Shown here piece by piece: positions 9,001 through 30,227 of a DNA stretch of 64,000 nt (its first letter is position 1; every line of letters starts with the position of its first letter). The stretch comes from Mobula hypostoma (Eukaryota), in assembly GCF_963921235.1 (NCBI RefSeq), contig NC_086107.1, forward strand, positions 105,774,001-105,838,000. The letters run 5' to 3'. The position numbers and the translations under genes are program-made. The notes below the pieces were generated by a model. That model saw only the letters and a program-made list of their open reading frames with translations, made no database searches and was not told the DNA's origin.

Positions 9001-12000
9001 TCCGACAGTGAGATACTCCCTCAGTACCTCCCCTCTGACAGTGAGACACTCCCTCAGTACTGTCCCTCCGACAGTGAGATACTCCCTCAGAACAGTCCCT
9101 CTGACAGTGAGACACTCCCTCAGTACTGTTCCTTTGACAGTGAGACACTCCCTCAGTACTGTCCCTCTGACAGTGTGACACTCCCTCAGTCCCGTCCCTC
9201 TGACAGTGAGACACTCCCTCAGTACTGTCCCTCCGACAGTGAGATACTCCCTCAGTACTGTCCCTCCGACAGAGAGATACTCCCTCAGTACTGTCCGTCT
9301 GATGGTAGGGCACTCCCTGAGCACTGTTCCTCCGACATTGAGGCACTCCCTCAGTACTGTCCCTCCGACAGTGAGACTTTCCCTCAGTACTGTCCCTCCG
9401 ACAGTGTGACACTCCCTCAGTCATGTGCCTCCGACACTGAGACACTCCCTCAGTACTGTCCCTGTGACAGTGTGACACTCCTTCAGTACTGTCCCTCCGA
9501 CAGTGAGATACTCCCTCAGTACTGTCCCTCTGACAGTGAGACACTCCCTCAGTACTGTCCCTCCGACAGTGAGACACTCCCTCGGTACTGTCCCTCTGAC
9601 AGTGAGATACTCCCTCGGTACCGTCTCTTTGACAGTGAGACACTCCCTCGGTACCGTCCCTCCGAGACTGAGACACTTCCTCGGTACTGTCCCTCCGACA
9701 GTGAGATACTCCCTCAGTACTGTCCCTCTGACAGTGAGACACTCCCTCAGTACTGTCCCTCTGATTGTATGGCACTCCCTCAGTACTGTCCCTCCGACAG
9801 TGAGGCACTCCCTCAGTACTGTCCCTCCGACAGTGAGACACTCCCTCAGTACTGTCCCTCTGACAGTGAGACACTCCCTCGGTACTGTCCCTCTGACAGT
9901 GAGACACTCCCTCGGTACCGTCCCTCCGACAGTGAGACACTCCCTCAGTCCTGTCCCTCTGACAGTGAGACATTCCCTCAGTACTGTTCCTCTGATGGTA
10001 GGGCACTCCCTCAGTACTGTCCCTCCGACAGTGAGGCACTCCCTCAGTACTGTCCCTCTGATAGTGAGACACTCCCTCAGTACTGTCCCTCCGACAGTGA
10101 GATACTCCCTCAGTACTGTCCCTCTGACAGTGAGACACTCCCTCAGTACTGTCCCTCTGACAGTGAGACACTCCCTCAGTACTGTCCCTCCGACAGTGAG
10201 GCACTCCCTCAGTGCTGTCCCTCCGAGAGTGAGACACTCCCTCAGTACTGTTCCTCCGAGAGTGAGACACTCCCTCAGTACTGTCCCTCTGACAGTGTGA
10301 CACTCCTTCAGTACTGTCCCTCTGACACTGAGACACTCCCTCAGTACTGTCCCTTCGGCAGTGTGACACTCCCTCAGTACTGTCCCTCTGACAGTGAGAC
10401 ACTCCCTCAGTACTGTCCCTCTGATGGTAGGGCACTCCCTCAGTACTGTCCCTCAGACAGTGAGGCACTCCCTCAGTACTGTCTCTCCGACAGTGAGACA
10501 CTCCCTCAGTACTGTCCCTCTGATGGTAGGGCCCTCCCTCAGTACTGTCCCTCCGACAGTGAGACACTCCCTCAGTACTGTCCCTCTGACAGTGAGACAC
10601 TCCCTCAGTACTGTCCCTCCGACAGTGAGATACTCCCTCAGTACTGTCCCTCTGATAGTGATACACTCCCTCAGTACTGTCCCTCTGACAGTGAGACACT
10701 CACTCAGTACTGTCCCTCTGACAGTGAGATACTCTCTCAGTCCTGTCCCTCTGACAGTGTGACACTCCCTGAGTACTGTCCCTCTGACAGTGAGACACTC
10801 CCTCAGTACTGTCCCTCCGATAGTGAGACACTGCCGCAGTACTGTCCCTCTGACAGTGAGGCACTCCCTCAGTACTGTCCCTCTGACAGTGAGACAGTCC
10901 CTCAGTACTGTCCCTCCGACAGTGAGATACTCCCTCAGTACTGTCCCTCTGACAGTGAGACACTCCCTCAGTACTGTCCCTCTGACAGTGAGACATTCCC
11001 TCAGTACTGTCCCTCTGATGATAGGGCACTCCGTCAGTACTGTCCCTCCGACAGTGAGACACTCCCTCAGTACTGTCCCTCTGACAGTTTGACACTCCCT
11101 CGGTACCGCCCCTCGACAGTGAGACACTCTCTCAGTACCGTCCCTCTGCCAGTGAGACACTCCCTCAGTACTGTCCCTCCGACAGTGAGATACTCCCTCA
11201 GTACTGTCCCTCTGACAGTGAGACACTCCCTCAGTACTGTTCCTCTGATGGTAGGGCACTCCCTCAGTACTGTCCCTCCGACAGTGAGGCTTCCCTCAGT
11301 ACTGTCCCTCCGACAGTGAGACACTCCCTCAGTACTGTCCCTCTGACAGTGAGACACTCCCTCGGCACCGTCCCTCCGACAGTGAGACACTCCCTCAGTA
11401 CCGTCCCTCTGCCAGTGAGGCACTCCCTCGGTACTGTCCCTCCGACAGTGAGACACTCCCTCGGTACTGTCCCTCTGACAGTGTGACACTCCCTCGGTAC
11501 TGTCCCTCTGACAGTGAGACACTCCCTTAGTACTTTCCCTCCGACAGTGAGACAATCCCTCAGTACTGTCCCTCTGACAGTGAGATACTCCCTCGGTACC
11601 GTCCCTTTGACAGTGAGACACTCCCTCGGTTCCGTCCCTCCGACACTGAGACACTTCCTCGGTACTGTCCCTCCGACAGTGAGACACTCCCTCAGTACTG
11701 TCCCTCTGAGAGTGTGACACTCCCTCAGTACTGTCCCTCCGACAGTGAGATACTCCCTCAGTACTGTCCCTCTGACAGTGAGACACTCCCTCAGTACTGT
11801 TCCTCTGATGGTAGGGCACTCCCTCAGTACTGTCCCTCCGTCAGTGAGGCACTCCCTCAGTACTGTCCCTCCGACAGTGAGACAGTCCCTCAGTACTGTC
11901 CCTCTGACAGTGAGACACTCCCTCGGTACTGTCCCTCTGACAGTGAGACACTCCCTCGGTACCGTCCCTCCGACAGTGAGACACTCCCTCAGTCCTGTCC

Positions 12001-12700
12001 CTCTGACAGTGAGACATTCCCTCAGTACTGTTCCTCTGATGGTAGGGCACTCCCTCAGTACTGTCCCTCCGACAGTGAGGCACTCCCTCAGTACTGTCCC
12101 TCTGACAGTGAGACACTCCCTCAGTACTGTCCCTCTGACAGTGAGACACTCCCTCAGTACTGTCCCTCCGACAGTGAGGCACTCCCTCAGTGCTGTCCCT
12201 CCGAGAGTGAGACACTCCCTCAGTACTGTCCCTCTGACAGTGTGACACTCCTTCAGTACTGTCCCTCTGACACTGAGACACTCCCTCAGTACTGTCCCTT
12301 CGGCAGTGTGGCACTCCCTCAGTACTGTCCCTCTGACAGTGAGACACTCCCTCAGTACTGTCCCTCTGATGGTAGGGCACTCCCTCAGTACCGTCCCTCC
12401 GCCAGTGAGGCACTCCCTCGGTACTCTCCCTCCGACAGTGAGACACTCCCTCGGTACTGTCCCTCTGACTGTGTGACACTCCCTTAGTACCGTCCCTCCG
12501 ACAGTGAGACACTCCCTCAGTACTTTCCCTCTGACAGTGAGACACTCCCTCGGTACCGTCCCTCTGACAGTGAGACACTCCCTCGGTACCGTCCCTCCGA
12601 CAGTGAGACACTCCCTCGGTACTGTCCCTCCGACAGTGAGACACTCCCTCGGTACTGTCCCTCCGACAGTGATACACTCCCTCAGTACTGTCCCTCTGAT
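1..12700. repeat. 33-bp minisatellite array 1 (~385 units, open at window start)
   Basis: Continuous tandem units GACAGTGAGACACTCCCTCAGTACTGTCCCTC(T/C) with recurrent variant units such as GATGGTAGGGCA, GAGAT, GAGGC and GTGTG. Confidence 0.99.
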
Positions 12701-12966
12701 CGTGCAAAAATCTCTCGTTACTCCGACAGCGCTGTGCTCCCTCAGTGCCGGACAGTTTGTCTGCAAAGTTCTCATCTCAGCGCTGTAATATTTCATCAGA
12801 TTTAAATCCACCCAAAACTTAAGCATTTGCATGGCAGATCCAGACAGTTGTAATTGTACAAGCTGAGAGACGATGTTTTATGGTTCTGCTCCAAAATTAA
12901 TCCTGGCAGTTTACTGAGGATTTCTATTGAATTGCTCTAATTTTCGCATGGATTCCAAGGCCAGCC

Positions 12967-13115
12967 TCACACAGATGTCGGCTGTTGTCTGATGTTGTGT
13001 TGACCAAGTGTGTACTTCTGTCCTGTGGAGATAATGTGGTCGATCTGCCTCCATTCTTCACCCAGCTCATCATTGTCCACGGGGGAAGGGGCTGATAGAT
13101 TATCATAATATCCAC
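12967..13115 (-). other. Possible terminal coding exon of an unidentified gene (GYYDNLSAPSPVDNDELGEEWRQIDHIISTGQKYTLGQHNIRQQPTSV*); duplicate at 26154-26302
   Basis: AG at 13117-13116, then 2 nt + 48 open codons + TGA in non-TE-looking sequence. Acceptor weak, no homolog recognised. Confidence 0.2.
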
Positions 13116-13134
13116 CTATGATCATATAGTCGCA

Positions 13135-13715
13135 GAATCATAGAGCACTACAGAACAGAAACAGGCCTTTCGGCCCATCTAGTCTCTGCCAGCCAGGTCT
13201 GCTACCTGATCTCATAAGGCTTCACCTGGACCATAGCCCTCCATCCCTCTCTCATCATCTTACCTGACCAAACTTCTCTTAAATGTTACAATTGACCTCG
13301 TATTTACCACTTTCTCTGGCATAAATAGACCCACCTAATCTGAGCCGAACTATTATTCTGCCAGGTTCCATCGATCTGTACCTAGACCATACCCCTCCCG
13401 TCCATATACCTATTTAAACTTCTCTTAAGTGGTGCAAGTAACCCCATTTCCACCACTCCTGCAGGTTGCACACCACTCTTAAGTATTTCAACTTTCACCC
13501 TTAACCTATGACCTCTAGTTCCAGTCTCACCCAACCTCAATGGAAAAAGCCTGCTTGCATTCACCCTATCTATACACCTCATACTTTTATATACTCCCAT
13601 ATGATCTCTCCTCACTCTCCTAAACTCCAGGGAATAAAGTCGTAATCCATTCAGACTTTCCCTGTAACCAAGGTCCTCAAGTTCCGGCAACATCCTTGAA
13701 ATCTTTCAAGGTTAT
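13135..13715 (-). mobile_element. CR1 LINE 3' fragments (duplicate 26322-26902)
   Basis: ORF 13382-13693 'LPELEDLGYRESLNGLRLYSLEFRRVRRD..GETGTRGH' resembles the CR1 ORF2 C-terminus, with CR1-type 3' UTR. Confidence 0.85.
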
Positions 13716-13759
13716 TGATACCTTTCACCTTGAGGCTGGTCAATGTTAGGGTGAACCAG

Positions 13760-13940
13760 TGTTGCAGTCGGTCAAGCCACTGCCTGGCATCTCCAATGAC
13801 CCGGGGGGAAATCCTGATCTCTGGTGCTGTCTGTGTGGTGTTTGCAAGTTCTCCCTGTAGCCGCACACGTTTCCTCCTGTTGTTACCTCCCACATCCCAA
13901 ACGTGGATTAGTTCTCCACGCTAAATTGTTCCTCATATGT
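13760..13940 (+). mobile_element. HE1/V-SINE-like SINE remnant (second remnant 14210-14370; duplicates at +13187)
   Basis: V-domain-like 'tgtgtggtgtttgcaagttctccctgt...cctcccacatcccaaa'. Confidence 0.7.
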
Positions 13941-14371
13941 AGATATTAGGGGGCTTTTGCTTTTGCTAAGGCACTTGAGGGGAGGGGGTTGGTGGAGGGT
14001 TGATGTTTTGCTGCTGTTTATGTGTAGGAGGGGGGCTTTGGGTTTCCAATGTTTTCCTGTCATTCATTCTTTGGGGTTTTCTTCTGTTTTTGAGGCTGTC
14101 TGTGAAGAGTAAGAATTTCAGGTTGTATACCGTGTACATTCTCTGATATTAAGTGGAATCATTGAACCATTGATCAGTGATAAAATCTGTTTTTTTCTTC
14201 TCTGGGGATGATGCGGTAGTGTAGCAGTTAGGGTAATGCTAGCAAATACCAGTACTGTAACCCAGTTTCAATTCTGCACCCGGCTTCAACCCTGCCATTA
14301 TCTGGAAGGAATTTGTACTTTCTCCCTGTGACCATGTGGGATTCCTCCAGGTGCTCTGGTTTCCTCCTACG

Positions 14372-14714
14372 TTTGCTTGTTTGTTATGCGCCCTGTCATG
14401 TGACGTGGGCTTTCCATGACCATGATTGTTCTTGGCAAACCTTTCCACAGAAGTGGTTTGCCATGGCCTTCTTCTGGGCAGTGTCTTCACAAGACGGGTG
14501 ACCCAAGCCATTATCAATACTCTTCAGCGATTGTCTGCCTGGCGTTGGCGGTCACATAACCAAGGAGAACCATGCACCAGCTGCTCATACAACCATCCAC
14601 CACCTGCTCCCGTGGCTTGACGTGACCCTGATCGGGGTGGGGGTCTAAGCTAGTGCCCTTAATGGAGTGCCTTACACCTCCTTTGGTAGAAACGTATTTC
14701 AACCCTGCCACCCA
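14372..14714 (-). mobile_element. SINE-like element with RTE/BovB-type motif (duplicate 27559-27901)
   Basis: Minus-strand 'gaagaaggccatggcaaaccact' resembles the Bov-A/Sauria-SINE motif. Confidence 0.5.
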
Positions 14715-15105
14715 GTGATAATAGCGTTACACATTACAGTGCTCCACAAAACACACTGTTCACAGTTTCAAATTATAGCCCGCTCATTACTGTCTGTGTT
14801 AATGCACTCGAGCTCCTGGGGTGCCCTCCAGTTCCAGGATTCTTCCACTGTACTTGTGGTCCCTCTTCAGCGACACATGGGTATGGGCATAACCATGGAA
14901 AATGAGTAGGCATCAGTGGTAGACACACACAAAATACTGGAGGAACTCAACAGATCAGGCAGCATCTATGGACGTCAATAAACCATCAACATTTTGGCCA
15001 AGGCACTTCTTCAGAAGGGGGAAGATGCCAGAATAAAAAGGTGAGGGGGGAGGGGAAGGACAATAGCTAGAAGGTGATAGATGAAGCCAGGTGGGTTGGA
15101 AAGAT

Positions 15106-15709
15106 GGTTGGCATCTGTCTGTCTCGATGGACAATGGGTGATGATCATCATCACAAACCTGGGCTGAAAGTGTGGAGATCCTGAGATGCCCAGTCATCAA
15201 GATCCCCCTCTCGGCCTCATTGGTGTAGTCCAAAGGAAAGCTTATGAAGCAATACGTTTGGCACCAGCTTGGCAGCAGGAGCTGCTGGAAGGATGTTCAA
15301 CGACATCCAGCTGCCTTAGAGGCTCCACTCCGGATTTGCTTTCTGAGTTCACTTCCATAGCCTTCATCTCTCCTGAGGCTGCCCACAAGGCAGTGGGGCT
15401 GTTTACCCCTAGCTGGGGATCTGGTTCGTGAGCACTGGGGTGTGCTACGTGTTCAGGGGCCAGACCTCCTCCCCGTCCTCTGTAGTTCAGCCCGAGTCCG
15501 AAAGGAGTTCAGTTTCCGTGTGACGCCAGCGAGGAGGCACTGCGTGAGGCTTGTTGTTGGAGAGGCTGTGTACTGGCAGGGAGAGACTCACACATTCAGA
15601 TCTCCTTTTTAACAAGACTGCCAGCCAGCGGTGGAAGCTGAAAGTGAGATAACAAGCACTACCCGCTACACTACCACACTAGATGCATCTCAACAACCAA
15701 TCTGACACC
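15106..15709 (-). mobile_element. 604-bp non-autonomous retroelement, probably RTE-derived, with 13-bp TSD; duplicate 28293-28896
   Basis: Direct repeat GGGTTGGAAAGAT at 15093-15105 and 15710-15722; no credible ORF; contains an HDV-like fold. Confidence 0.75.
15477..15593 (-). ncRNA. HDV-like self-cleaving ribozyme (possibly decayed)
   Basis: P1 GUGUGAg/gUCACAC; P2 CCUCacGCAGU/ACUACaGAGG; P3-L3 GCC-UCCUCGCU-GGC; P1.1 GG; P4 CUGA-ac-UCC-UUUC-GGA-c-UCGG; J4/2 CUGA with catalytic C at 15490. Confidence 0.75.
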
Positions 15710-16189
15710 GGGTTGGAAAGATAAAGGGCTGGAAAAGAAGGAATCTAATAGGACAGGAGAGTGGACCACAGGAGAAAGAGAAGGAGAAGGAGGAAGGGAC
15801 CCAGAGGGAGGTGATAGGCAGATGAGAAGAGATAAGAGGCCACAGTGGGGAGTAGAAGAAGAGGGGAGGAGGAGGGAATATTTTTTACCAGAAGGAGAAA
15901 TCATTCAATATTCATGCCATTAGGTTGGAGGCTACCCAGACGGAATATAAGGTGTTGCTCCTCCACCCTGAGGGTGGCCCCATCTTGGCACAAGAGGAGG
16001 CCGTGGACGGTCCTGTCAGAACAGGATTGGGAGTTGGAGTGAAAATTTTGGACCACCGGGAAGTTCCACTTTTGGTGGATGGGGCGGAGGTGCTCGACAC
16101 AGTGGGCCCCCAGTTTACAACGGGTCCCACCCATGTGGAGAATGCTGCATCAGGAGCACGGGACACAATAGACGACCCCAGCAGATTCT

Positions 16190-19100
16190 CAGTGAGGCAC
16201 TCCCTCGGTACCGTCCCTCTGACAGTGAGACACTCCCTCAGTATTGTCCCTCTGACAGTGAGACACTCCCTCAGTATTGTCCCTCTGACAGTGAGACACT
16301 CCCTCAGTACTGTCCCTCTGGCAGTGAGACACTCCCTCAGTACTGTCCCTCCGACAGTGAGATTCTTCCTCAGTAGTGTCCCTCTGACAGTGAGACATCC
16401 CTCAGTACTGTCCCTCTGACAGTGAGACACTCCCTCAGTACTGTCCCTCTGATGGTATGGCATTCCCTCAGTACTGTCCCTCTGACAGTGAGACACTCCC
16501 TCAGTAATGTCCCTCTGACAGTGAGACTCTCCCTCAGTACTGTCCCTCCGACAGTGTGATACTCCCTCAGTACTGTCCCTCTGACAGTGAGACACTCCCT
16601 CAGTACTGTCCCTCTGATGGTAGGGCACTCCCTCTGTACTGTCCCTCCGACAGTGAGGCACTCCCTCAGTACTGTCCCTCCGCCAGTGAGACACTCCCTC
16701 AGTACTGTCCCTCTGACAGTGAGACACTCCCTCAGTACTGTCCGTCTGATGGTAGGGTACTCCCTGAGCACTGTTCCTCCGAAATTGAGGCACTCCCTCA
16801 GTACTGTCCCTCCGACAGTGAGACTTTCCCTCAGTACTGTCCCTCCGACAGTGTGACACTCCCTCAGTCATGTGCCTCCGACACTGAGACACTCCCTCAG
16901 TACTGTCACTCTGACAGTGAGACACTCCCTCAGTACTGTCCGTCTGACAGTGATACACTCCCTCAGTACTGACCCTCTGATGGTAGGGCACTCCCTCAGT
17001 ACTGTCCCTCCGACAGTGAGGCACTCCCTCAGTACTGTCCCTCCGACAGTGAGACACTCCCTCAGTACTGTTCCCCGACAGTGAGACACTCCCTAAGTAC
17101 TGCCCCTGTGACAGTGTGACACTCCTTCAGTACTGTCCCTCTGACAGTGAAACACTCCCTTAGTACTGTCCCTCCGACAGTGTGTCACTCCCTCAGTACT
17201 GTCCCTCTGACAGTGAGACACTCACTCAGTACTGTCCCTCTGATGGTAGGGAACTCCCTCAGTACTCTCCCTCCGACAGTGAGGCACTCCCTCAGTACAG
17301 TCCCTCCGACAGTGAGACACTCCCTCAGTACTGTCCATCTGATGGTAGGGCACTCCCTCAGTACTGTCCCTCCGACAGTGAGACACTCCCTCAGTACTGT
17401 CCCTCTGACAGTGAGATACTCCCTTAGTACTGTCCCTCTGACAGTGAGACACTCCCTCAGTACTGTCCCTCTGATGGTAGGGCACTCCCTCAGCACTGTC
17501 CCTCCGACAGTGAGGCACTCCCTCAGTACTGTCCCTCCGACAGTGAGAAACTTCCTCAGTACTGTCCCTCTGACAGTGAGACACTCCCTCTGTACTGTCC
17601 CTCTGATGGTAGGGCACTCCCTCAGCACTGTCTCTCCGACAGTGAGGCACTCCCTCAGTACTGTACCTCCGACAGTGAGACACTCCCTCAGTACTGTCCC
17701 TCCGACAGTGAGGCACTCCCTCAGTACTGTCCCTCCGACAGTGTGGCACTCCCTCAGTACTGTCCCTCCGACAGTGTGACACACCCTCAGTACCTCCCCT
17801 CTGACAGTGAGACACTCGCTCGGTACTGTACCTCTGACAGTGAGACACTCCCTCAGTACTGTCCCTCCGACAGTGAGATACTCCCTCAGTACTGTCCCTC
17901 TGACAGTGAGACACTCCCTCAGTATTGTCCCTCTGACAGTGAGACACTCCCTCAGTACTGTCCCTCTGGCAGTGAGACACTCCCTCAGTACTGTCCCTCC
18001 GACAGTGAGATTCTTCCTCAGTAGTGTCCCTCTGACAGTGAGACATCCCTCAGTACTGTCCCTCTGACAGTGAGACACTCCCTCAGTACTGTCCCTCTGA
18101 TGGTATGGCATTCCCTCAGTACTGTCCCTCTGACAGTGAGACACTCCCTCAGTAATGTCCCTCTGACAGTGAGACTCTCCCTCAGTACTGTCCCTCCGAC
18201 AGTGTGATACTCCCTCAGTACTGTCCCTCTGACAGTGAGACACTCCCTCAGTACTGTCCCTCTGATGGTAGGGCACTCCCTCAGTACTGTCCCTCCGACA
18301 GTGAGGCACTCCCTCAGTACTGTCCCTCCGCCAGTGAGACACTCCCTCAGTACTGTCCCTCTGACAGTGAGACACTCCCTCAGTACTGTCCGTCTGATGG
18401 TAGGGTACTCCCTGAGCACTGTTCCTCCGAAATTGAGGCACTCCCTCAGTACTGTCCCTCCGACAGTGAGACTTTCCCTCAGTACTGTCCCTCCGACAGT
18501 GTGACACTCCCTCAGTCATGTGCCTCCGACACTGAGACACTCCCTCAGTACTGTCACTCTGACAGTGAGACACTCCCTCAGTACTGTCCCTCCGACAGTG
18601 AGATACTCCCTCAGTACTGTCCCTCTGATAGTGAGACACTCCCTCAGTACTGTCCCTCTGACAGTGAGTCACTCCCTCAGTACTGTCCCTCTGACAGTGA
18701 AACACTCCCTCAGTACTGTCCGTCTGACAGTGAGACACTCCCTCAGTACTGTCCCCCCGATGGTAGGGCACTCCCTCAGTACTGTCCCTCCGACACTGAG
18801 ACACTCCCTCAGTACTGTCCCTCCGACAGTGAGATACTCCCTTAGTACTGTTCCTCCGACAGTGAGACACTCCCTCAGTACTGTCCCTGTGACAGTGTGA
18901 CACTCCTTCAGTACTGTCCCTCTGACAGTGAGACACTCCCTCAGTATTGTCCCTCCGACAGTGTGACACTCCCTCAGTACTGTCCCTCTGACAGTGAGAC
19001 ACTCACTCAGTACTGTCCCTCTGATGGTAGGGCACTCCCTCAGTACTCTCCCTCCGACAGTGAGGCACTCCCTCAGTACTGTCCCACCGACAGTGAGACA

Positions 19101-22100: not shown

Positions 22101-25100
22101 ACACTCCCTCAGTACTGTCCCTCTCACAGTGTGATACTCCCTCAGTACCGTCCCTCCGACAGTGAGATACTCCCTCAGTACCTCCCCTCTGACAGTGAGA
22201 CACTCCCTCAGTACTGTCCCTCCGACAGTGAGATACTCCCTCAGAACAGTCCCTCTGACAGTGAGACACTCCCTCAGTACTGTTCCTTTGACAGTGAGAC
22301 ACTCCCTCAGTACTGTCCCTCTGACAGTGTGACACTCCCTCAGTCCCGTCCCTCTGACAGTGAGACACTCCCTCAGTACTGTCCCTCCGACAGTGAGATA
22401 CTCCCTCAGTACTGTCCCTCTGACAGTGAGACACTCCCTCAGTACTGTCCCTCCGACAGAGAGATACTCCCTCAGTACTGTCCGTCTGATGGTAGGGCAC
22501 TCCCTGAGCACTGTTCCTCCGACATTGAGGCACTCCCTCAGTACTGTCCCTCCGACAGTGAGACTTTCCCTCAGTACTGTCCCTCCGACAGTGTGACACT
22601 CCCTCAGTCATGTGCCTCCGACACTGAGACACTCCCTCAGTACTGTCCCTGTGACAGTGTGACACTCCTTCAGTACTGTCCCTCCGACAGTGAGATACTC
22701 CCTCAGTACTGTCCCTCTGACAGTGAGACACTCCCTTAGTACTTTCCCTCCGACAGTGAGACACTCCCTCGGTACTGTCCCTCTGACAGTGAGATACTCC
22801 CTCGGTACCGTCTCTTTGACAGTGAGACACTCCCTCGGTACCGTCCCTCCGAGACTGAGACACTTCCTCGGTACTGTCCCTCCGACAGTGAGATACTCCC
22901 TCAGTACTGTCCCTCTGACAGTGAGACACTCCCTCAGTACTGTTCCTCTGATGGTAGGGCACTCCCTCAGTACTGTCCCTCCGACAGTGAGGCACTCCCT
23001 CAGTACTGTCCCTCCGACAGTGAGACACTCCCTCAGTACTGTCCCTCTGACAGTGAGACACTCCCTCGGTACTGTCCCTCTGACAGTGAGACACTCCCTC
23101 GGTACCGTCCCTCCGACAGTGAGACACTCCCTCAGTCCTGTCCCTCTGACAGTGAGACATTCCCTCAGTACTGTTCCTCTGATGGTAGGGCACTCCCTCA
23201 GTACTGTCCCTCCGACAGTGAGGCACTCCCTCAGTACTGTCCCTCTGATAGTGAGACACTCCCTCAGTACTGTCCCTCCGACAGTGAGATACTCCCTCAG
23301 TACTGTCCCTCTGACAGTGAGACACTCCCTCAGTACTGTCCCTCTGACAGTGAGACACTCCCTCAGTACTGTCCCTCCGACAGTGAGGCACTCCCTCAGT
23401 GCTGTCCCTCCGAGAGTGAGACACTCCCTCAGTACTGTTCCTCCGAGAGTGAGACACTCCCTCAGTACTGTCCCTCTGACAGTGTGACACTCCTTCAGTA
23501 CTGTCCCTCTGACACTGAGACACTCCCTCAGTACTGTCCCTTCGGCAGTGTGACACTCCCTCAGTACTGTCCCTCTGACAGTGAGACACTCCCTCAGTAC
23601 TGTCCCTCTGATGGTAGGGCACTCCCTCAGTACTGTCCCTCAGACAGTGAGGCACTCCCTCAGTACTGTCTCTCCGACAGTGAGACACTCCCTCAGTACT
23701 GTCCCTCTGATGGTAGGGCCCTCCCTCAGTACTGTCCCTCCGACAGTGAGACACTCCCTCAGTACTGTCCCTCTGACAGTGAGACACTCCCTCAGTACTG
23801 TCCCTCCGACAGTGAGATACTCCCTCAGTACTGTCCCTCTGATAGTGATACACTCCCTCAGTACTGTCCCTCTGACAGTGAGACACTCACTCAGTACTGT
23901 CCCTCTGACAGTGAGATACTCTCTCAGTCCTGTCCCTCTGACAGTGTGACACTCCCTGAGTACTGTCCCTCTGACAGTGAGACACTCCCTCAGTACTGTC
24001 CCTCCGATAGTGAGACACTGCCGCAGTACTGTCCCTCTGACAGTGAGGCACTCCCTCAGTACTGTCCCTCTGACAGTGAGACAGTCCCTCAGTACTGTCC
24101 CTCCGACAGTGAGATACTCCCTCAGTACTGTCCCTCTGACAGTGAGACACTCCCTCAGTACTGTCCCTCTGACAGTGAGACATTCCCTCAGTACTGTCCC
24201 TCTGATGATAGGGCACTCCGTCAGTACTGTCCCTCCGACAGTGAGACACTCCCTCAGTACTGTCCCTCTGACAGTTTGACACTCCCTCGGTACCGCCCCT
24301 CGACAGTGAGACACTCTCTCAGTACCGTCCCTCTGCCAGTGAGACACTCCCTCAGTACTGTCCCTCCGACAGTGAGATACTCCCTCAGTACTGTCCCTCT
24401 GACAGTGAGACACTCCCTCAGTACTGTTCCTCTGATGGTAGGGCACTCCCTCAGTACTGTCCCTCCGACAGTGAGGCTTCCCTCAGTACTGTCCCTCCGA
24501 CAGTGAGACACTCCCTCAGTACTGTCCCTCTGACAGTGAGACACTCCCTCGGCACCGTCCCTCCGACAGTGAGACACTCCCTCAGTACCGTCCCTCTGCC
24601 AGTGAGGCACTCCCTCGGTACTGTCCCTCCGACAGTGAGACACTCCCTCGGTACTGTCCCTCTGACAGTGTGACACTCCCTCGGTACTGTCCCTCTGACA
24701 GTGAGACACTCCCTTAGTACTTTCCCTCCGACAGTGAGACAATCCCTCAGTACTGTCCCTCTGACAGTGAGATACTCCCTCGGTACCGTCCCTTTGACAG
24801 TGAGACACTCCCTCGGTTCCGTCCCTCCGACACTGAGACACTTCCTCGGTACTGTCCCTCCGACAGTGAGACACTCCCTCAGTACTGTCCCTCTGAGAGT
24901 GTGACACTCCCTCAGTACTGTCCCTCCGACAGTGAGATACTCCCTCAGTACTGTCCCTCTGACAGTGAGACACTCCCTCAGTACTGTTCCTCTGATGGTA
25001 GGGCACTCCCTCAGTACTGTCCCTCCGTCAGTGAGGCACTCCCTCAGTACTGTCCCTCCGACAGTGAGACAGTCCCTCAGTACTGTCCCTCTGACAGTGA

Positions 25101-25887
25101 GACACTCCCTCGGTACTGTCCCTCTGACAGTGAGACACTCCCTCGGTACCGTCCCTCCGACAGTGAGACACTCCCTCAGTCCTGTCCCTCTGACAGTGAG
25201 ACATTCCCTCAGTACTGTTCCTCTGATGGTAGGGCACTCCCTCAGTACTGTCCCTCCGACAGTGAGGCACTCCCTCAGTACTGTCCCTCTGACAGTGAGA
25301 CACTCCCTCAGTACTGTCCCTCTGACAGTGAGACACTCCCTCAGTACTGTCCCTCCGACAGTGAGGCACTCCCTCAGTGCTGTCCCTCCGAGAGTGAGAC
25401 ACTCCCTCAGTACTGTCCCTCTGACAGTGTGACACTCCTTCAGTACTGTCCCTCTGACACTGAGACACTCCCTCAGTACTGTCCCTTCGGCAGTGTGGCA
25501 CTCCCTCAGTACTGTCCCTCTGACAGTGAGACACTCCCTCAGTACTGTCCCTCTGATGGTAGGGCACTCCCTCAGTACCGTCCCTCCGCCAGTGAGGCAC
25601 TCCCTCGGTACTCTCCCTCCGACAGTGAGACACTCCCTCGGTACTGTCCCTCTGACTGTGTGACACTCCCTTAGTACCGTCCCTCCGACAGTGAGACACT
25701 CCCTCAGTACTTTCCCTCTGACAGTGAGACACTCCCTCGGTACCGTCCCTCTGACAGTGAGACACTCCCTCGGTACCGTCCCTCCGACAGTGAGACACTC
25801 CCTCGGTACTGTCCCTCCGACAGTGAGACACTCCCTCGGTACTGTCCCTCCGACAGTGATACACTCCCTCAGTACTGTCCCTCTGAT
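16190..25887. repeat. 33-bp minisatellite array 2 (~294 units)
   Basis: Same unit; order of variant units nearly identical to 3085-12700. Confidence 0.99.
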
Positions 25888-28663
25888 CGTGCAAAAATCT
25901 CTCGTTACTCCGACAGCGCTGTGCTCCCTCAGTGCCGGACAGTTTGTCTGCAAAGTTCTCATCTCAGCGCTGTAATATTTCATCAGATTTAAATCCACCC
26001 AAAACTTAAGCATTTGCATGGCAGATCCAGACAGTTGTAATTGTACAAGCTGAGAGACGATGTTTTATGGTTCTGCTCCAAAATTAATCCTGGCAGTTTA
26101 CTGAGGATTTCTATTGAATTGCTCTAATTTTCGCATGGATTCCAAGGCCAGCCTCACACAGATGTCGGCTGTTGTCTGATGTTGTGTTGACCAAGTGTGT
26201 ACTTCTGTCCTGTGGAGATAATGTGGTCGATCTGCCTCCATTCTTCACCCAGCTCATCATTGTCCACGGGGGAAGGGGCTGATAGATTATCATAATATCC
26301 ACCTATGATCATATAGTCGCAGAATCATAGAGCACTACAGAACAGAAACAGGCCTTTCGGCCCATCTAGTCTCTGCCAGCCAGGTCTGCTACCTGATCTC
26401 ATAAGGCTTCACCTGGACCATAGCCCTCCATCCCTCTCTCATCATCTTACCTGACCAAACTTCTCTTAAATGTTACAATTGACCTCGTATTTACCACTTT
26501 CTCTGGCATAAATAGACCCACCTAATCTGAGCCGAACTATTATTCTGCCAGGTTCCATCGATCTGTACCTAGACCATACCCCTCCCGTCCATATACCTAT
26601 TTAAACTTCTCTTAAGTGGTGCAAGTAACCCCATTTCCACCACTCCTGCAGGTTGCACACCACTCTTAAGTATTTCAACTTTCACCCTTAACCTATGACC
26701 TCTAGTTCCAGTCTCACCCAACCTCAATGGAAAAAGCCTGCTTGCATTCACCCTATCTATACACCTCATACTTTTATATACTCCCATATGATCTCTCCTC
26801 ACTCTCCTAAACTCCAGGGAATAAAGTCGTAATCCATTCAGACTTTCCCTGTAACCAAGGTCCTCAAGTTCCGGCAACATCCTTGAAATCTTTCAAGGTT
26901 ATTGATACCTTTCACCTTGAGGCTGGTCAATGTTAGGGTGAACCAGTGTTGCAGTCGGTCAAGCCACTGCCTGGCATCTCCAATGACCCGGGGGGAAATC
27001 CTGATCTCTGGTGCTGTCTGTGTGGTGTTTGCAAGTTCTCCCTGTAGCCGCACACGTTTCCTCCTGTTGTTACCTCCCACATCCCAAACGTGGATTAGTT
27101 CTCCACGCTAAATTGTTCCTCATATGTAGATATTAGGGGGCTTTTGCTTTTGCTAAGGCACTTGAGGGGAGGGGGTTGGTGGAGGGTTGATGTTTTGCTG
27201 CTGTTTGTGTGTAGGAGGGGGGCTTTGGGTTTCCAATGTTTTCCTGTCATTCATTCTTTGGGGTTTTCTTCTGTTTTTGAGGCTGTCTGTGAAGAGTAAG
27301 AATTTCAGGTTGTATACCGTGTACATTCTCTGATATTAAGTGGAATCATTGAACCATTGATCAGTGATAAAATCTGTTTTTTTCTTCTCTGGGGATGATG
27401 CGGTAGTGTAGCAGTTAGGGTAATGCTAGCAAATACCAGTACTGTAACCCAGTTTCAATTCTGCACCCGGCTTCAACCCTGCCATTATCTGGAAGGAATT
27501 TGTACTTTCTCCCTGTGACCATGTGGGATTCCTCCAGGTGCTCTGGTTTCCTCCTACGTTTGCTTGTTTGTTATGCGCCCTGTCATGTGACGTGGGCTTT
27601 CCATGACCATGATTGTTCTTGGCAAACCTTTCCACAGAAGTGGTTTGCCATGGCCTTCTTCTGGGCAGTGTCTTCACAAGACGGGTGACCCAAGCCATTA
27701 TCAATACTCTTCAGCGATTGTCTGCCTGGCGTTGGCGGTCACATAACCAAGGAGAACCATGCACCAGCTGCTCATACAACCATCCACCACCTGCTCCCGT
27801 GGCTTGACGTGACCCTGATCGGGGTGGGGGTCTAAGCTAGTGCCCTTAATGGAGTGCCTTACACCTCCTTTGGTAGAAACGTATTTCAACCCTGCCACCC
27901 AGTGATAATAGCGTTACACATTACAGTGCTCCACAAAACACACTGTTCACAGTTTCAAATTATAGCCCGCTCATTACTGTCTGTGTTAATGCACTCGAGC
28001 TCCTGGGGTGCCCTCCAGTTCCAGGATTCTTCCACTGTACTTGTGGTCCCTCTTCAGCGACACATGGGTATGGGCATAACCATGGAAAATGAGTAGGCAT
28101 CAGTGGTAGACACACACAAAATACTGGAGGAACTCAACAGATCAGGCAGCATCTATGGACGTCAATAAACCATCAACATTTTGGCCAAGGCACTTCTTCA
28201 GAAGGGGGAAGATGCCAGAATAAAAAGGTGAGGGGGGAGGGGAAGGACAATAGCTAGAAGGTGATAGATGAAGCCAGGTGGGTTGGAAAGATGGTTGGCA
28301 TCTGTCTGTCTCGATGGACAATGGGTGATGATCATCATCACAAACCTGGGCTGAAAGTGTGGAGATCCTGAGATGCCCAGTCATCAAGATCCCCCTCTCG
28401 GCCTCATTGGTGTAGTCCAAAGGAAAGCTTATGAAGCAATACGTTTGGCACCAGCTTGGCAGCAGGAGCTGCTGGAAGGATGTTCAACGACATCCAGCTG
28501 CCTTAGAGGCTCCACTCCGGATTTGCTTTCTGAGTTCACTTCCATAGCCTTCATCTCTCCTGAGGCTGCCCACAAGGCAGTGGGGCTGTTTACCCCTAGC
28601 TGGGGATCTGGTTCGTGAGCACTGGGGTGTGCTACGTGTTCAGGGGCCAGACCTCCTCCCCGT

Positions 28664-28780
28664 CCTCTGTAGTTCAGCCCGAGTCCGAAAGGAGTTCAGT
28701 TTCCGTGTGACGCCAGCGAGGAGGCACTGCGTGAGGCTTGTTGTTGGAGAGGCTGTGTACTGGCAGGGAGAGACTCACAC
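28664..28780 (-). ncRNA. HDV-like ribozyme, duplicated copy
   Basis: Same sequence as 15477-15593 at offset 13187. Confidence 0.75.
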
Positions 28781-29376
28781 ATTCAGATCTCCTTTTTAAC
28801 AAGACTGCCAGCCAGCGGTGGAAGCTGAAAGTGAGATAACAAGCACTACCCGCTACACTACCACACTAGATGCATCTCAACAACCAATCTGACACCGGGT
28901 TGGAAAGATAAAGGGCTGGAAAAGAAGGAATCTAATAGGACAGGAGAGTGGACCACAGGAGAAAGAGAAGGAGAAGGAGGAAGGGACCCAGAGGGAGGTG
29001 ATAGGCAGATGAGAAGAGATAAGAGGCCACAGTGGGGAGTAGAAGAAGAGGGGAGGAGGAGGGAATATTTTTTACCAGAAGGAGAAATCATTCAATATTC
29101 ATGCCATTAGGTTGGAGGCTACCCAGACGGAATATAAGGTGTTGCTCCTCCACCCTGAGGGTGGCCCCATCTTGGCACAAGAGGAGGCCGTGGACGGTCC
29201 TGTCAGAACAGGATTGGGAGTTGGAGTGAAAATTTTGGACCACCGGGAAGTTCCACTTTTGGTGGATGGGGCGGAGGTGCTCGACACAGTGGGCCCCCAG
29301 TTTACAACGGGTCCCACCCATGTGGAGAATGCTGCATCAGGAGCACGGGACACAATAGACGACCCCAGCAGATTCT

Positions 29377-30227
29377 CAGTGAGGCACTCCCTCGGTACCG
29401 TCCCTCTGACAGTGAGACACTCCCTCGGTGCCGTCCCTCCGACAGTGAGGCACTCCCTCGGTGCCGTCCCTCCGACAGTGAGGCACTCCCTCGGTACCGT
29501 CCCTCCGACAGTGTGACACTCCCTCGGTGCCGTCCCTCCGACAGTGAGGCACTCCCTCGGTACCGTCCCTCCGACAGTGTGACACTCCCTCGGTGCCGTC
29601 CCTCCGACAGTGTGACACTCCCTCGGTGCCGTCCCTCTGACAGTGAGACACTCCCTCGGTGCCGTCCCTCCGACAGTGAGGCACTCCCTCGGTGCCGTCC
29701 CTCCGACAGTGAGACACTCCCTCGGTGCCGTCCCTCCGACAGTGAGGCACTCCCTCGGTGCCGTCCCTCCGACAGTGAGGCACTCCCTCGGTGCCGTCCC
29801 TCCGACAGTGAGGCACTCCCTCGGTACCGTCCCTCCGACAGTGAGACACTCCCTCGGTACCGTCCCTCCGACAGTGTGACACTCCCTCGGTGCCGTCCCT
29901 CCGACAGTGAGACACTCCCTCGGTACCGTCCCTCCGACAGTGTGACACTCCCTCGGTGCCGTCCCTCCGACAGTGAGACACTCCCTCGGTACCGTCCCTC
30001 CGACAGTGTGACACTCCCTCGGTGCCGTCCCTCCGACAGTGAGGCACTCCCTCGGTGCCGTCCCTCCGACAGTGAGACACTCCCTCGGTACTGTCCCTCT
30101 GATGGTAGGACACTCCCTCAGTACTGTCCCTCCGACAGTGAGACACTCCCTCAGTACTGTCCCTCCGACAGTGTGACACTCCCTCGGTACCATCCCTCCG
30201 ACAGTGAGGCACTCCCTCAGTACTGTC
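29377..30227. repeat. 33-bp minisatellite array 3 (~26 units, CpG-rich variant)
   Basis: Units dominated by CACTCCCTCGGTGCCGTCCCTCCGACAGT; followed by an inverted ~1.4 unit at 30227-30272. Confidence 0.97.

What the first reader, a model, noticed from the sequence alone, without database searches (positions are those of the whole stretch)
15477..15593. HDV-like ribozyme inside a TSD-flanked 604-bp non-coding retroelement
Seen: the minus strand has GCCUCCUCGCUGGCG, followed by a 7-nt P1 3' strand (GUCACAC), GG for P1.1, a P4 hairpin, CUGA (J4/2) and a P2 partner; the P1 5' strand GUGUGAg lies upstream across a ~37-nt J1/2. Known: this 15-mer equals P3/L3 of the genomic HDV ribozyme as I recall it, and HDV-like ribozymes occur in RTE/R2 5' UTRs. 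Unusual: the predicted cut (15593) is ~116 nt inside the TSD-defined 5' end, so this copy came from uncleaved RNA. One P1 and one P2 mismatch suggest decay.
Basis: partly seen in the sequence, partly recalled or inferred. Interest (0 to 1): 0.7.

Follow-up and report, generated by a model that had tools for sequence, protein, structure and literature searches.

The report
Ribozyme-headed shortened RTE retrotransposon copy
This is a worn copy of a common short jumping element made of the two ends of a longer RTE retrotransposon; its first 229 bases match a hepatitis-delta-type RNA fold predicted to cut itself exactly at the element's first base, which is an ordinary, already described strategy.

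Summary
The HDV-like core and the 13-bp target duplication are real. The unusual claim is not. The element (15709-15106, minus strand) belongs to a dispersed family that joins the 5' UTR and 3' tip of a decayed ~4-kb EN/RT LINE in the same genome. The better P1 partner is the element's own first bases: 7 of 7 pairs in the older family's majority, 6 pairs plus a bulged A in this family. Of 47 loci picked on the core alone, 36 start in the first 10 nt and 0 near 15593. Two sister RTE families have the same layout with other paired sequences. The predicted cut is therefore 15709, at the duplication boundary; nothing points to uncleaved RNA. Cleavage is untested and there is no covariation within the family. 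Bipartite RTEs with ribozyme heads are in print (PMC5786205), and this scan noted similar elements on other DNA.

The parts
15106..15709 (-). Bipartite non-autonomous RTE-type element, 604 bp, about 90% identical to its family majority
15710..15722 (.). Target-site duplication, copy at the element's 5' side (13 nt)
15093..15105 (.). Target-site duplication, copy at the element's 3' side (13 nt)
15481..15709 (-). Predicted large HDV-like ribozyme (229 nt); predicted cut just 5' of 15709
   Evidence: cleavage not tested
15704..15709 (-). P1 5' strand = first six bases of the element (seven in the older family and parent LINE)
15545..15703 (-). J1/2 domain (159 nt), closed by a predicted 7-bp P1.2 helix 15697-15691 with 15559-15553, then an 8-nt linker
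15587..15593 (-).
15539..15544 (-). P2 5' strand; two U-to-C changes break 2 of 6 pairs in this copy
15525..15538 (-). P3 and L3
15516..15524 (-). P1 3' strand (7 nt, A-to-U change at 15523 in this copy) and GG of P1.1
15492..15512 (-). P4 hairpin
15481..15490 (-). J4/2 with the predicted catalytic C at 15490, and P2 3' strand
15152..15480 (-). Rest of the parent LINE's 5' UTR
   Evidence: 77-81% identity of window copy nt ~2-558 to full-length-5' parent copies
15138..15154 (-). Junction: near-palindromic (GAT)/(ATC) filler; a perfect 20-nt palindrome in the family majority
15106..15137 (-). 3' tip of the parent LINE and the short (CCA/ACCA) tail
28293..28896 (-). Second, identical copy inside a ~7-kb local duplication (not an independent insertion)

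Best explanation
This is a decayed copy of a non-coding element formed by internal deletion of an RTE-type LINE, and its first 229 bases are predicted to fold as a large HDV-like ribozyme that would cut just before the element's first base (15709). Shown: family, boundaries, parent LINE, paired helices in the family majority, clustering of 5' ends. Inferred mechanism: a host transcript reads into a master copy; the element's first 6-7 bases pair with the strand after P3 across a 159-nt J1/2 domain whose closing helix brings P1 and P2 together; the C at 15490 acts as general acid; the released RNA starts at G1; the parent LINE's endonuclease/RT recognises the 3' tip and inserts it by target-primed reverse transcription, leaving the 13-bp duplication. 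This copy is likely inactive now (a U-U mismatch in P1, two P2 mismatches).
For: Parent: loci L218, L249-L251, L253, L254, L260 match family nt ~2-568 at 78-88%, most then carry EN/RT remnants and end with family nt 586-614; L250 spans about 4.0 kb and hits RVT_1. A 64-nt stretch of the 5' UTR matches Repbase RTE-12_AMi as printed in the supplement of PMC5786205 at 57 of 64 positions (counted by eye). Ends: 36 of 47 core-selected loci start within nt 1-10, 0 of 47 at nt 107-127. P1: older short copies begin G,T,G,T,G,T,C in 8,10,13,13,14,14,14 of 16, the exact complement of the P1 3' strand; this family begins G,G,T,G,T,C in 32,31,37,40,37,39 of 47. Terminal P1 pairs in 86% (26 copies) and 83% (15 copies) of cells; P1.2 97%, P2 90%. 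Partition function of the majority: terminal P1 0.24, internal candidate 0.00. Sister families A and C start sharply with six bases that pair 6 of 6 with the strand after their P3, and keep P1.2 (7/7), an 8-nt linker, P2 (6/6), P3 and CUGA with different helix sequences. Long J1/2 loops and 6-7 bp P1 stems are normal in R2 ribozymes (PMC3774820, passages and section 16); a P1.2 helix activates large HDV-like ribozymes (PMC4908430, part 1 of 4).
Against: No cleavage data. No covariation inside the family: 364-500 of 500 shuffles reach the observed values, as expected for dead copies but giving no support. In this family P1 needs a bulged A next to the cleavage pair, for which I found no precedent in the papers read; only 19 of 47 copies keep the exact hexamer. 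J4/2 is CUGA, not the CRRA of the descriptor in PMC6326823. No Rfam HDV-family hit; the only notable weak hit is antisense twister-P1, 22.6 bits against a cut-off of 67.2. RNAalifold on 49 mixed copies recovered just 5 pairs. The B-versus-A/C helix correspondence was laid out by hand. Target duplications were detected in only part of the copies and their ends scatter from -3 to +4 around G1.
Confidence: 0.85

Rival explanations
1. One reading: P1 is formed by 15593-15587, the cut lies 116 nt inside the element, and this copy derives from uncleaved RNA.
For: In this one copy the segment pairs 6 of 7 with the P1 3' strand, -7.2 kcal/mol; its first four pairs are possible in most copies.
Against: The last three pairs form in 8, 1 and 1 of 26 copies; the key change at 15523 is absent from the two closest sister copies, so it likely arose after insertion; 0 of 47 core-selected loci start near that site; parent LINE and older copies reach at most 4 of 7 pairs there (17 copies).
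Confidence: 0.03
2. The ribozyme worked in the parent LINE and older short copies, but in this younger family (one P1 base lost) it is a weak or dead relic, and the fixed 5' end comes from something else, such as an internal promoter or cleavage in trans.
For: P1 5' strand is one base shorter than in the older family, with no change on the 3' strand. A sub-lineage with two P2 mismatches occurs at three loci with different target duplications, two starting exactly at G1 (window copy, L006). P1 mismatches lowered or abolished cleavage in other HDV-like ribozymes (PMC3774820, passages).
Against: All other core elements stay intact in the family majority; R2 ribozymes tolerate 6-bp P1 stems and P2 mismatches (PMC3774820, section 16); the three sub-lineage loci lie within 2.1 Mb on one contig, so the P2 changes may have spread by gene conversion rather than by transposition. 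No promoter evidence was sought.
Confidence: 0.1
3. The fold is a chance resemblance with no self-cleaving role in any lineage.
For: No Rfam HDV hit; no within-family covariation.
Against: Descriptor hits 2 vs 0.08 expected; 31-32 pairs in six helices consistent in the majority; same layout with different paired sequences in sister families whose termini also equal P1.
Confidence: 0.02

Closest known systems
Bipartite ORF-absent non-autonomous RTE LINEs (RTESINE1/2, WALLSI3, MAR4_MD, Bov-A unit; Kojima 2018, PMC5786205: passages, section 23 and supplement passages read)
   Same: 5' end plus 3' end of an RTE LINE, no ORF, no tRNA head; the paper notes such elements usually keep the LINE's 5' end and links this to a 5' ribozyme.
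   Different: Different host and family; about 570 nt of 5' UTR kept; palindromic filler at the junction; ribozyme here resolved helix by helix.
R2 SIDEs and R2/R1 SIDEs of Drosophila (Eickbush and Eickbush 2012, PMC3414825: abstract only)
   Same: 5' HDV-like ribozyme joined to the 3' end of a LINE, mobilised in trans.
   Different: SIDEs are rDNA-site-specific and R2/R1-derived; this family is dispersed with varied target duplications and an APE-type parent.
Large HDV-like ribozymes with a J1/2 domain, e.g. drz-Agam-2-1 (Webb et al. 2016, PMC4908430: part 1 of 4) and R2 ribozymes (PMC3774820: passages, section 16)
   Same: P1 at the 5' end, long J1/2 closed by a P1.2 helix, P2-P3-L3 core, catalytic C in J4/2.
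   Different: P2 only 6 bp; predicted bulged A in P1 of the younger family; activity not measured.
RTE 5' HDV-like ribozymes (Ruminski et al. 2011; not held, known only through citations in PMC5786205 and PMC6765202, passages)
   Same: Ribozyme at the RTE 5' terminus thought to release the element from read-through transcripts.
   Different: Could not check whether this family or a relative is among their examples.

Membership tests
HDV-like ribozyme | P1 of 6-7 bp starting with G1 paired to C or U (PMC6326823, PMC3774820) | tested here: met
   7/7 in older family majority; 6 pairs with a bulged A in this family; one U-U mismatch in the window copy
HDV-like ribozyme | P1.1: two L3 cytosines pair with GG after P1 | tested here: met
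   25 and 21 of 26 copies
HDV-like ribozyme | P2 of at least 5 bp nested with P1 | tested here: met
   6/6 in majority, 90% of cells; 4/6 in the window copy
HDV-like ribozyme | 3-bp P3 and L3 with conserved U and CG | tested here: met
   P3 99% paired; L3 sequence
HDV-like ribozyme | J4/2 with catalytic C followed by RRA (descriptor of PMC6326823) | tested here: inconclusive
   C and final A present, second base is U in all three families; R2 ribozymes keep little beyond the C (PMC3774820)
HDV-like ribozyme | Compensatory changes support the helices | tested here: inconclusive
   None within the family; P1, P1.2 and P2 differ but pair in sister families, by manual correspondence
HDV-like ribozyme | Match to an Rfam HDV-type model | tested here: not met
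   the long J1/2 may defeat these models (inference)
HDV-like ribozyme | Mg2+-dependent self-cleavage 5' of G1, lost on C mutation | not testable with these tools
   needs an in vitro assay
Bipartite non-autonomous RTE | 5' part equals the 5' end of an autonomous LINE | tested here: met
Bipartite non-autonomous RTE | 3' part equals the 3' end of the same LINE | tested here: met
   nt 586-614 hit the 3' end of 9 of the 16 parent-candidate loci, with a shorter hit in L218
Bipartite non-autonomous RTE | No ORF and no tRNA-derived head | tested here: met
   two longest minus-strand frames have no Pfam hit; ARAGORN finds nothing, though it can miss decayed heads
Bipartite non-autonomous RTE | Amplified as a unit: many copies with one junction, target duplications, microsatellite tail | tested here: met
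Bipartite non-autonomous RTE | Parent belongs to the RTE clade | tested here: inconclusive
   5' UTR matches RTE-12_AMi; sister proteins are single ~1045-aa EN+RT ORFs; no RT tree against named clades was built

The most novel reading that the evidence does not exclude
The younger family amplified with a P1 shortened by one base, and a sub-lineage with a broken P2 still produced insertions starting exactly at G1. Either an HDV-like ribozyme tolerates a bulged A beside the cleavage pair, a natural variant I did not find described, or the fixed 5' end is made without cis self-cleavage. Old versus young majority RNAs give a natural paired test of how much ribozyme activity an RTE parasite needs.
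Probability: 0.15. Interest if true: 0.5.

Novelty: new member of a known kind. Interest (0 to 1): 0.25.

Why it matters
It adds one resolved example to a known pattern: RTE retrotransposons and their shortened parasites likely free themselves from host transcripts with a 5' HDV-like ribozyme. The practical lesson is that P1 must be sought at the element's terminus across a long J1/2, using family data; a single decayed copy offered a convincing false P1. The one open point of some interest is the one-base-shorter P1 of the younger family.

Tried and rejected
Rfam: no hit at gathering scores in the window; only chance-level hits at E<10 around the element; none in five loci at E<1; weak antisense twister-P1 hit on a 91-nt core, read as a mirror of the stems. 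DUF6451 search for the parent: found other LINE families; apart from one neighbouring copy of the element (L099) none of 40 loci shared sequence with it. RTE family A is a sister (about 70% over nt 356-566), not the parent. End-pairing as cause of the deletion (lead from an earlier finding): the parent's junction flank and 3' UTR pair at -37.7 kcal/mol against -36.9 +/- 4.6 for shuffles, 123 of 300 as good: not supported for this lineage. Sequencing runs: no RNA holder listed; contigs of four runs guessed to be RNA cover the family at 85% likeness but cannot show starts, and no place where many molecules begin was listed; several contigs stop at 15609, beside a site where this copy differs from the family, so I did not read that as an RNA end. 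The other-letter table agrees with the family majority at 15523, 15542, 15544 and 15589. Automated TSD calling succeeded in a minority of 81 copies. The P1 line for family B (1/6) ignores the bulge and is a script artefact; one search gives the bulged register. Literature: 'HDV-like, insertion in L3, ribozyme' and 'HDV-like, ribozyme, elasmobranch' returned 0 papers; two searches listed no paper that I could see describing a bulged P1, but only PMC4908430 (part) and PMC6326823 (passages) were opened from them, and the main RTE ribozyme paper is not held.

Full report
Observation. The minus strand carries an HDV-type core: P3 15538-15536, L3 15535-15528, P3' 15527-15525, a 7-nt strand 15524-15518, GG, a P4 hairpin 15512-15492, CUGA at 15490-15487 and a P2 partner 15486-15481. 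A 13-nt direct repeat flanks 15106-15709, and public contigs hold the host repeat without these 617 nt. A loose descriptor finds 2 hits in the window against 0.08 per shuffle in 100 shuffles. The two hits are one event: window 9246-16239 recurs 13,187 nt downstream almost unchanged. Rfam has no HDV-type match.

Family. A search of the own genome gave 3296 candidates, of which 40 were scored; 38 other places match at 82-86% over most of the length. In 29 aligned copies identity to the majority is 88-94%. Both ends are sharp, with a short (ACC/ACCA) tail. None of the 30 loci fetched on the core pattern shows RT or endonuclease sequence continuing from the element.

Parent. A junction-variant search revealed an older short family with an (ATC) tail and one copy that runs on into coding remnants (L218). 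A search with that coding part gave further copies. Of 16 candidate loci, 7 match family nt about 2-568 at 78-88%, 5 more match part of it, and 9 end with family nt 586-614; L250 spans about 4.0 kb and hits RVT_1. The element is therefore the LINE's 5' UTR joined to its last 30 or so bases. A 64-nt stretch agrees at 57 positions with RTE-12_AMi as printed in the supplement of PMC5786205 (counted by eye). A sister LINE (family A) has EN and RT domains and its relatives are single ORFs near 1045 aa. I did not build a tree, so the RTE label rests on these matches and on recalled features.

Which strand is P1? The change at 15523 that completes it is shared by 1 of 28 other copies and is missing from the two closest sisters. 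The element's own first bases fit better. Older short copies begin G,T,G,T,G,T,C in 8,10,13,13,14,14,14 of 16, the exact complement of the P1 3' strand; 2 of 7 LINE copies keep the exact heptamer; this family begins G,G,T,G,T,C in 32,31,37,40,37,39 of 47; 11 copies were left unclassified. The terminal helix pairs in 86% of cells with one bulged A and 83% as 7 bp in 15 older and LINE copies. Of 47 loci selected only on the core (30 of 43 matches, 17 new of 18), 36 start within nt 1-10 and none at nt 107-127. The J1/2 between is 159 nt, closed by a 7-bp helix (97% paired).

Comparative support. Family A (30 of 157 pattern matches examined) starts sharply at six bases beyond which composition is random; these pair at 5 or 6 of 6 with the strand after P3 in 19 of 23 parsed copies, 7 not parsed. 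Family C shows the same. Both keep the order P1, P1.2, 8-nt linker, P2, P3, J4/2 CUGA, with P1, P1.2 and P2 sequences that differ from this family yet pair fully; they carry a hairpin in L3 and lack P4. The correspondence is manual.

Against. No covariation exists within the family. J4/2 departs from the CRRA descriptor of PMC6326823 (passages). The bulged A has no precedent in what I read. A sub-lineage (window copy, L004, L006) shares two P2-breaking changes at three loci with different duplications; all lie within 2.1 Mb, so gene conversion is possible. Cleavage is untested.

Mechanism. Inferred: read-through transcription, cis cleavage before G1, then target-primed reverse transcription by the parent's protein. 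This follows what is described for R2, L1Tc and RTE elements (PMC6765202, passages; PMC5786205, section 23; PMC3774820, passages and section 16; PMC3414825, abstract). A structured J1/2 speeds cleavage in large HDV-like ribozymes (PMC4908430, part 1 of 4). PMC8501958 (passages) shows a twister-type alternative in another RTE. Ruminski et al. 2011 could not be read, and its supplements may bear on novelty.

Verdict. The ribozyme-like fold is real; the surprising part of the finding disappears once P1 is placed at the terminus. It is a new member of a known kind. Earlier notes of this scan describe similar elements in this and other genomes (38 findings, 8 shown); none matched this sequence by shared words. 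Interest 0.25.

Noticed in passing
window 9246-16239 and 22433-29426: A ~7-kb stretch recurs at an offset of 13,187 nt with almost no differences, inside a 33-bp satellite array (8-25886); a very recent duplication or an assembly artefact.
   Followed up: partly
L264-L293 (family A, first ~170 nt) and L295-L323 (family C): Two sister RTE families begin with a predicted HDV-like fold that has a hairpin inserted in L3, a one-pair P1.1 and no P4; no Rfam hit on three family-A loci. Earlier notes of this scan report the same variant.
   Followed up: partly
window 15138-15154: The junction of the younger family is a perfect 20-nt palindrome in the majority, made of the older family's (ATC) tail unit and its complement; it may come from a fold-back during copying.
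   Followed up: partly
L188-L217: Older short copies have varied junctions (28 distinct strings of 28, partly from decay), some keeping longer pieces of the parent's 5' or 3' UTR (L209, L217), which suggests repeated independent deletions.
   Followed up: partly
L002, L004, L006 (G000:C45:103.7-105.8 Mb): The window copy shares 21 and 20 of its 47 differences with two copies within 2.1 Mb on the same contig, each with its own target duplication; other copies share 1-12.
   Followed up: partly
position just 5' of the element in many loci: T precedes G1 in 32 of 47 younger copies and is the last base of the target duplication where one could be called, suggesting a target preference.
   Followed up: partly
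window ~15290-15355 (minus strand): The family majority matches a non-coding stretch of the alligator element RTE-12_AMi at 57 of 64 positions without gaps, high for such distant hosts; strong constraint or horizontal transfer.
   Followed up: no
L044:2267-2556: A SINE with a tRNA-like head (by eye) followed by pieces of family A's 5' UTR and 3' end, lacking the ribozyme region, as the Kojima model expects.
   Followed up: no
L081:4813-1760 (minus): A 1018-aa open EN/RT frame of another LINE family with a (GAA) tail, near intact.
   Followed up: no
window 14920-15105 and 15710-16200: The element sits inside an abundant host repeat that resembles Penelope-like elements of cartilaginous fishes (recalled; no Pfam hit).
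   Followed up: partly
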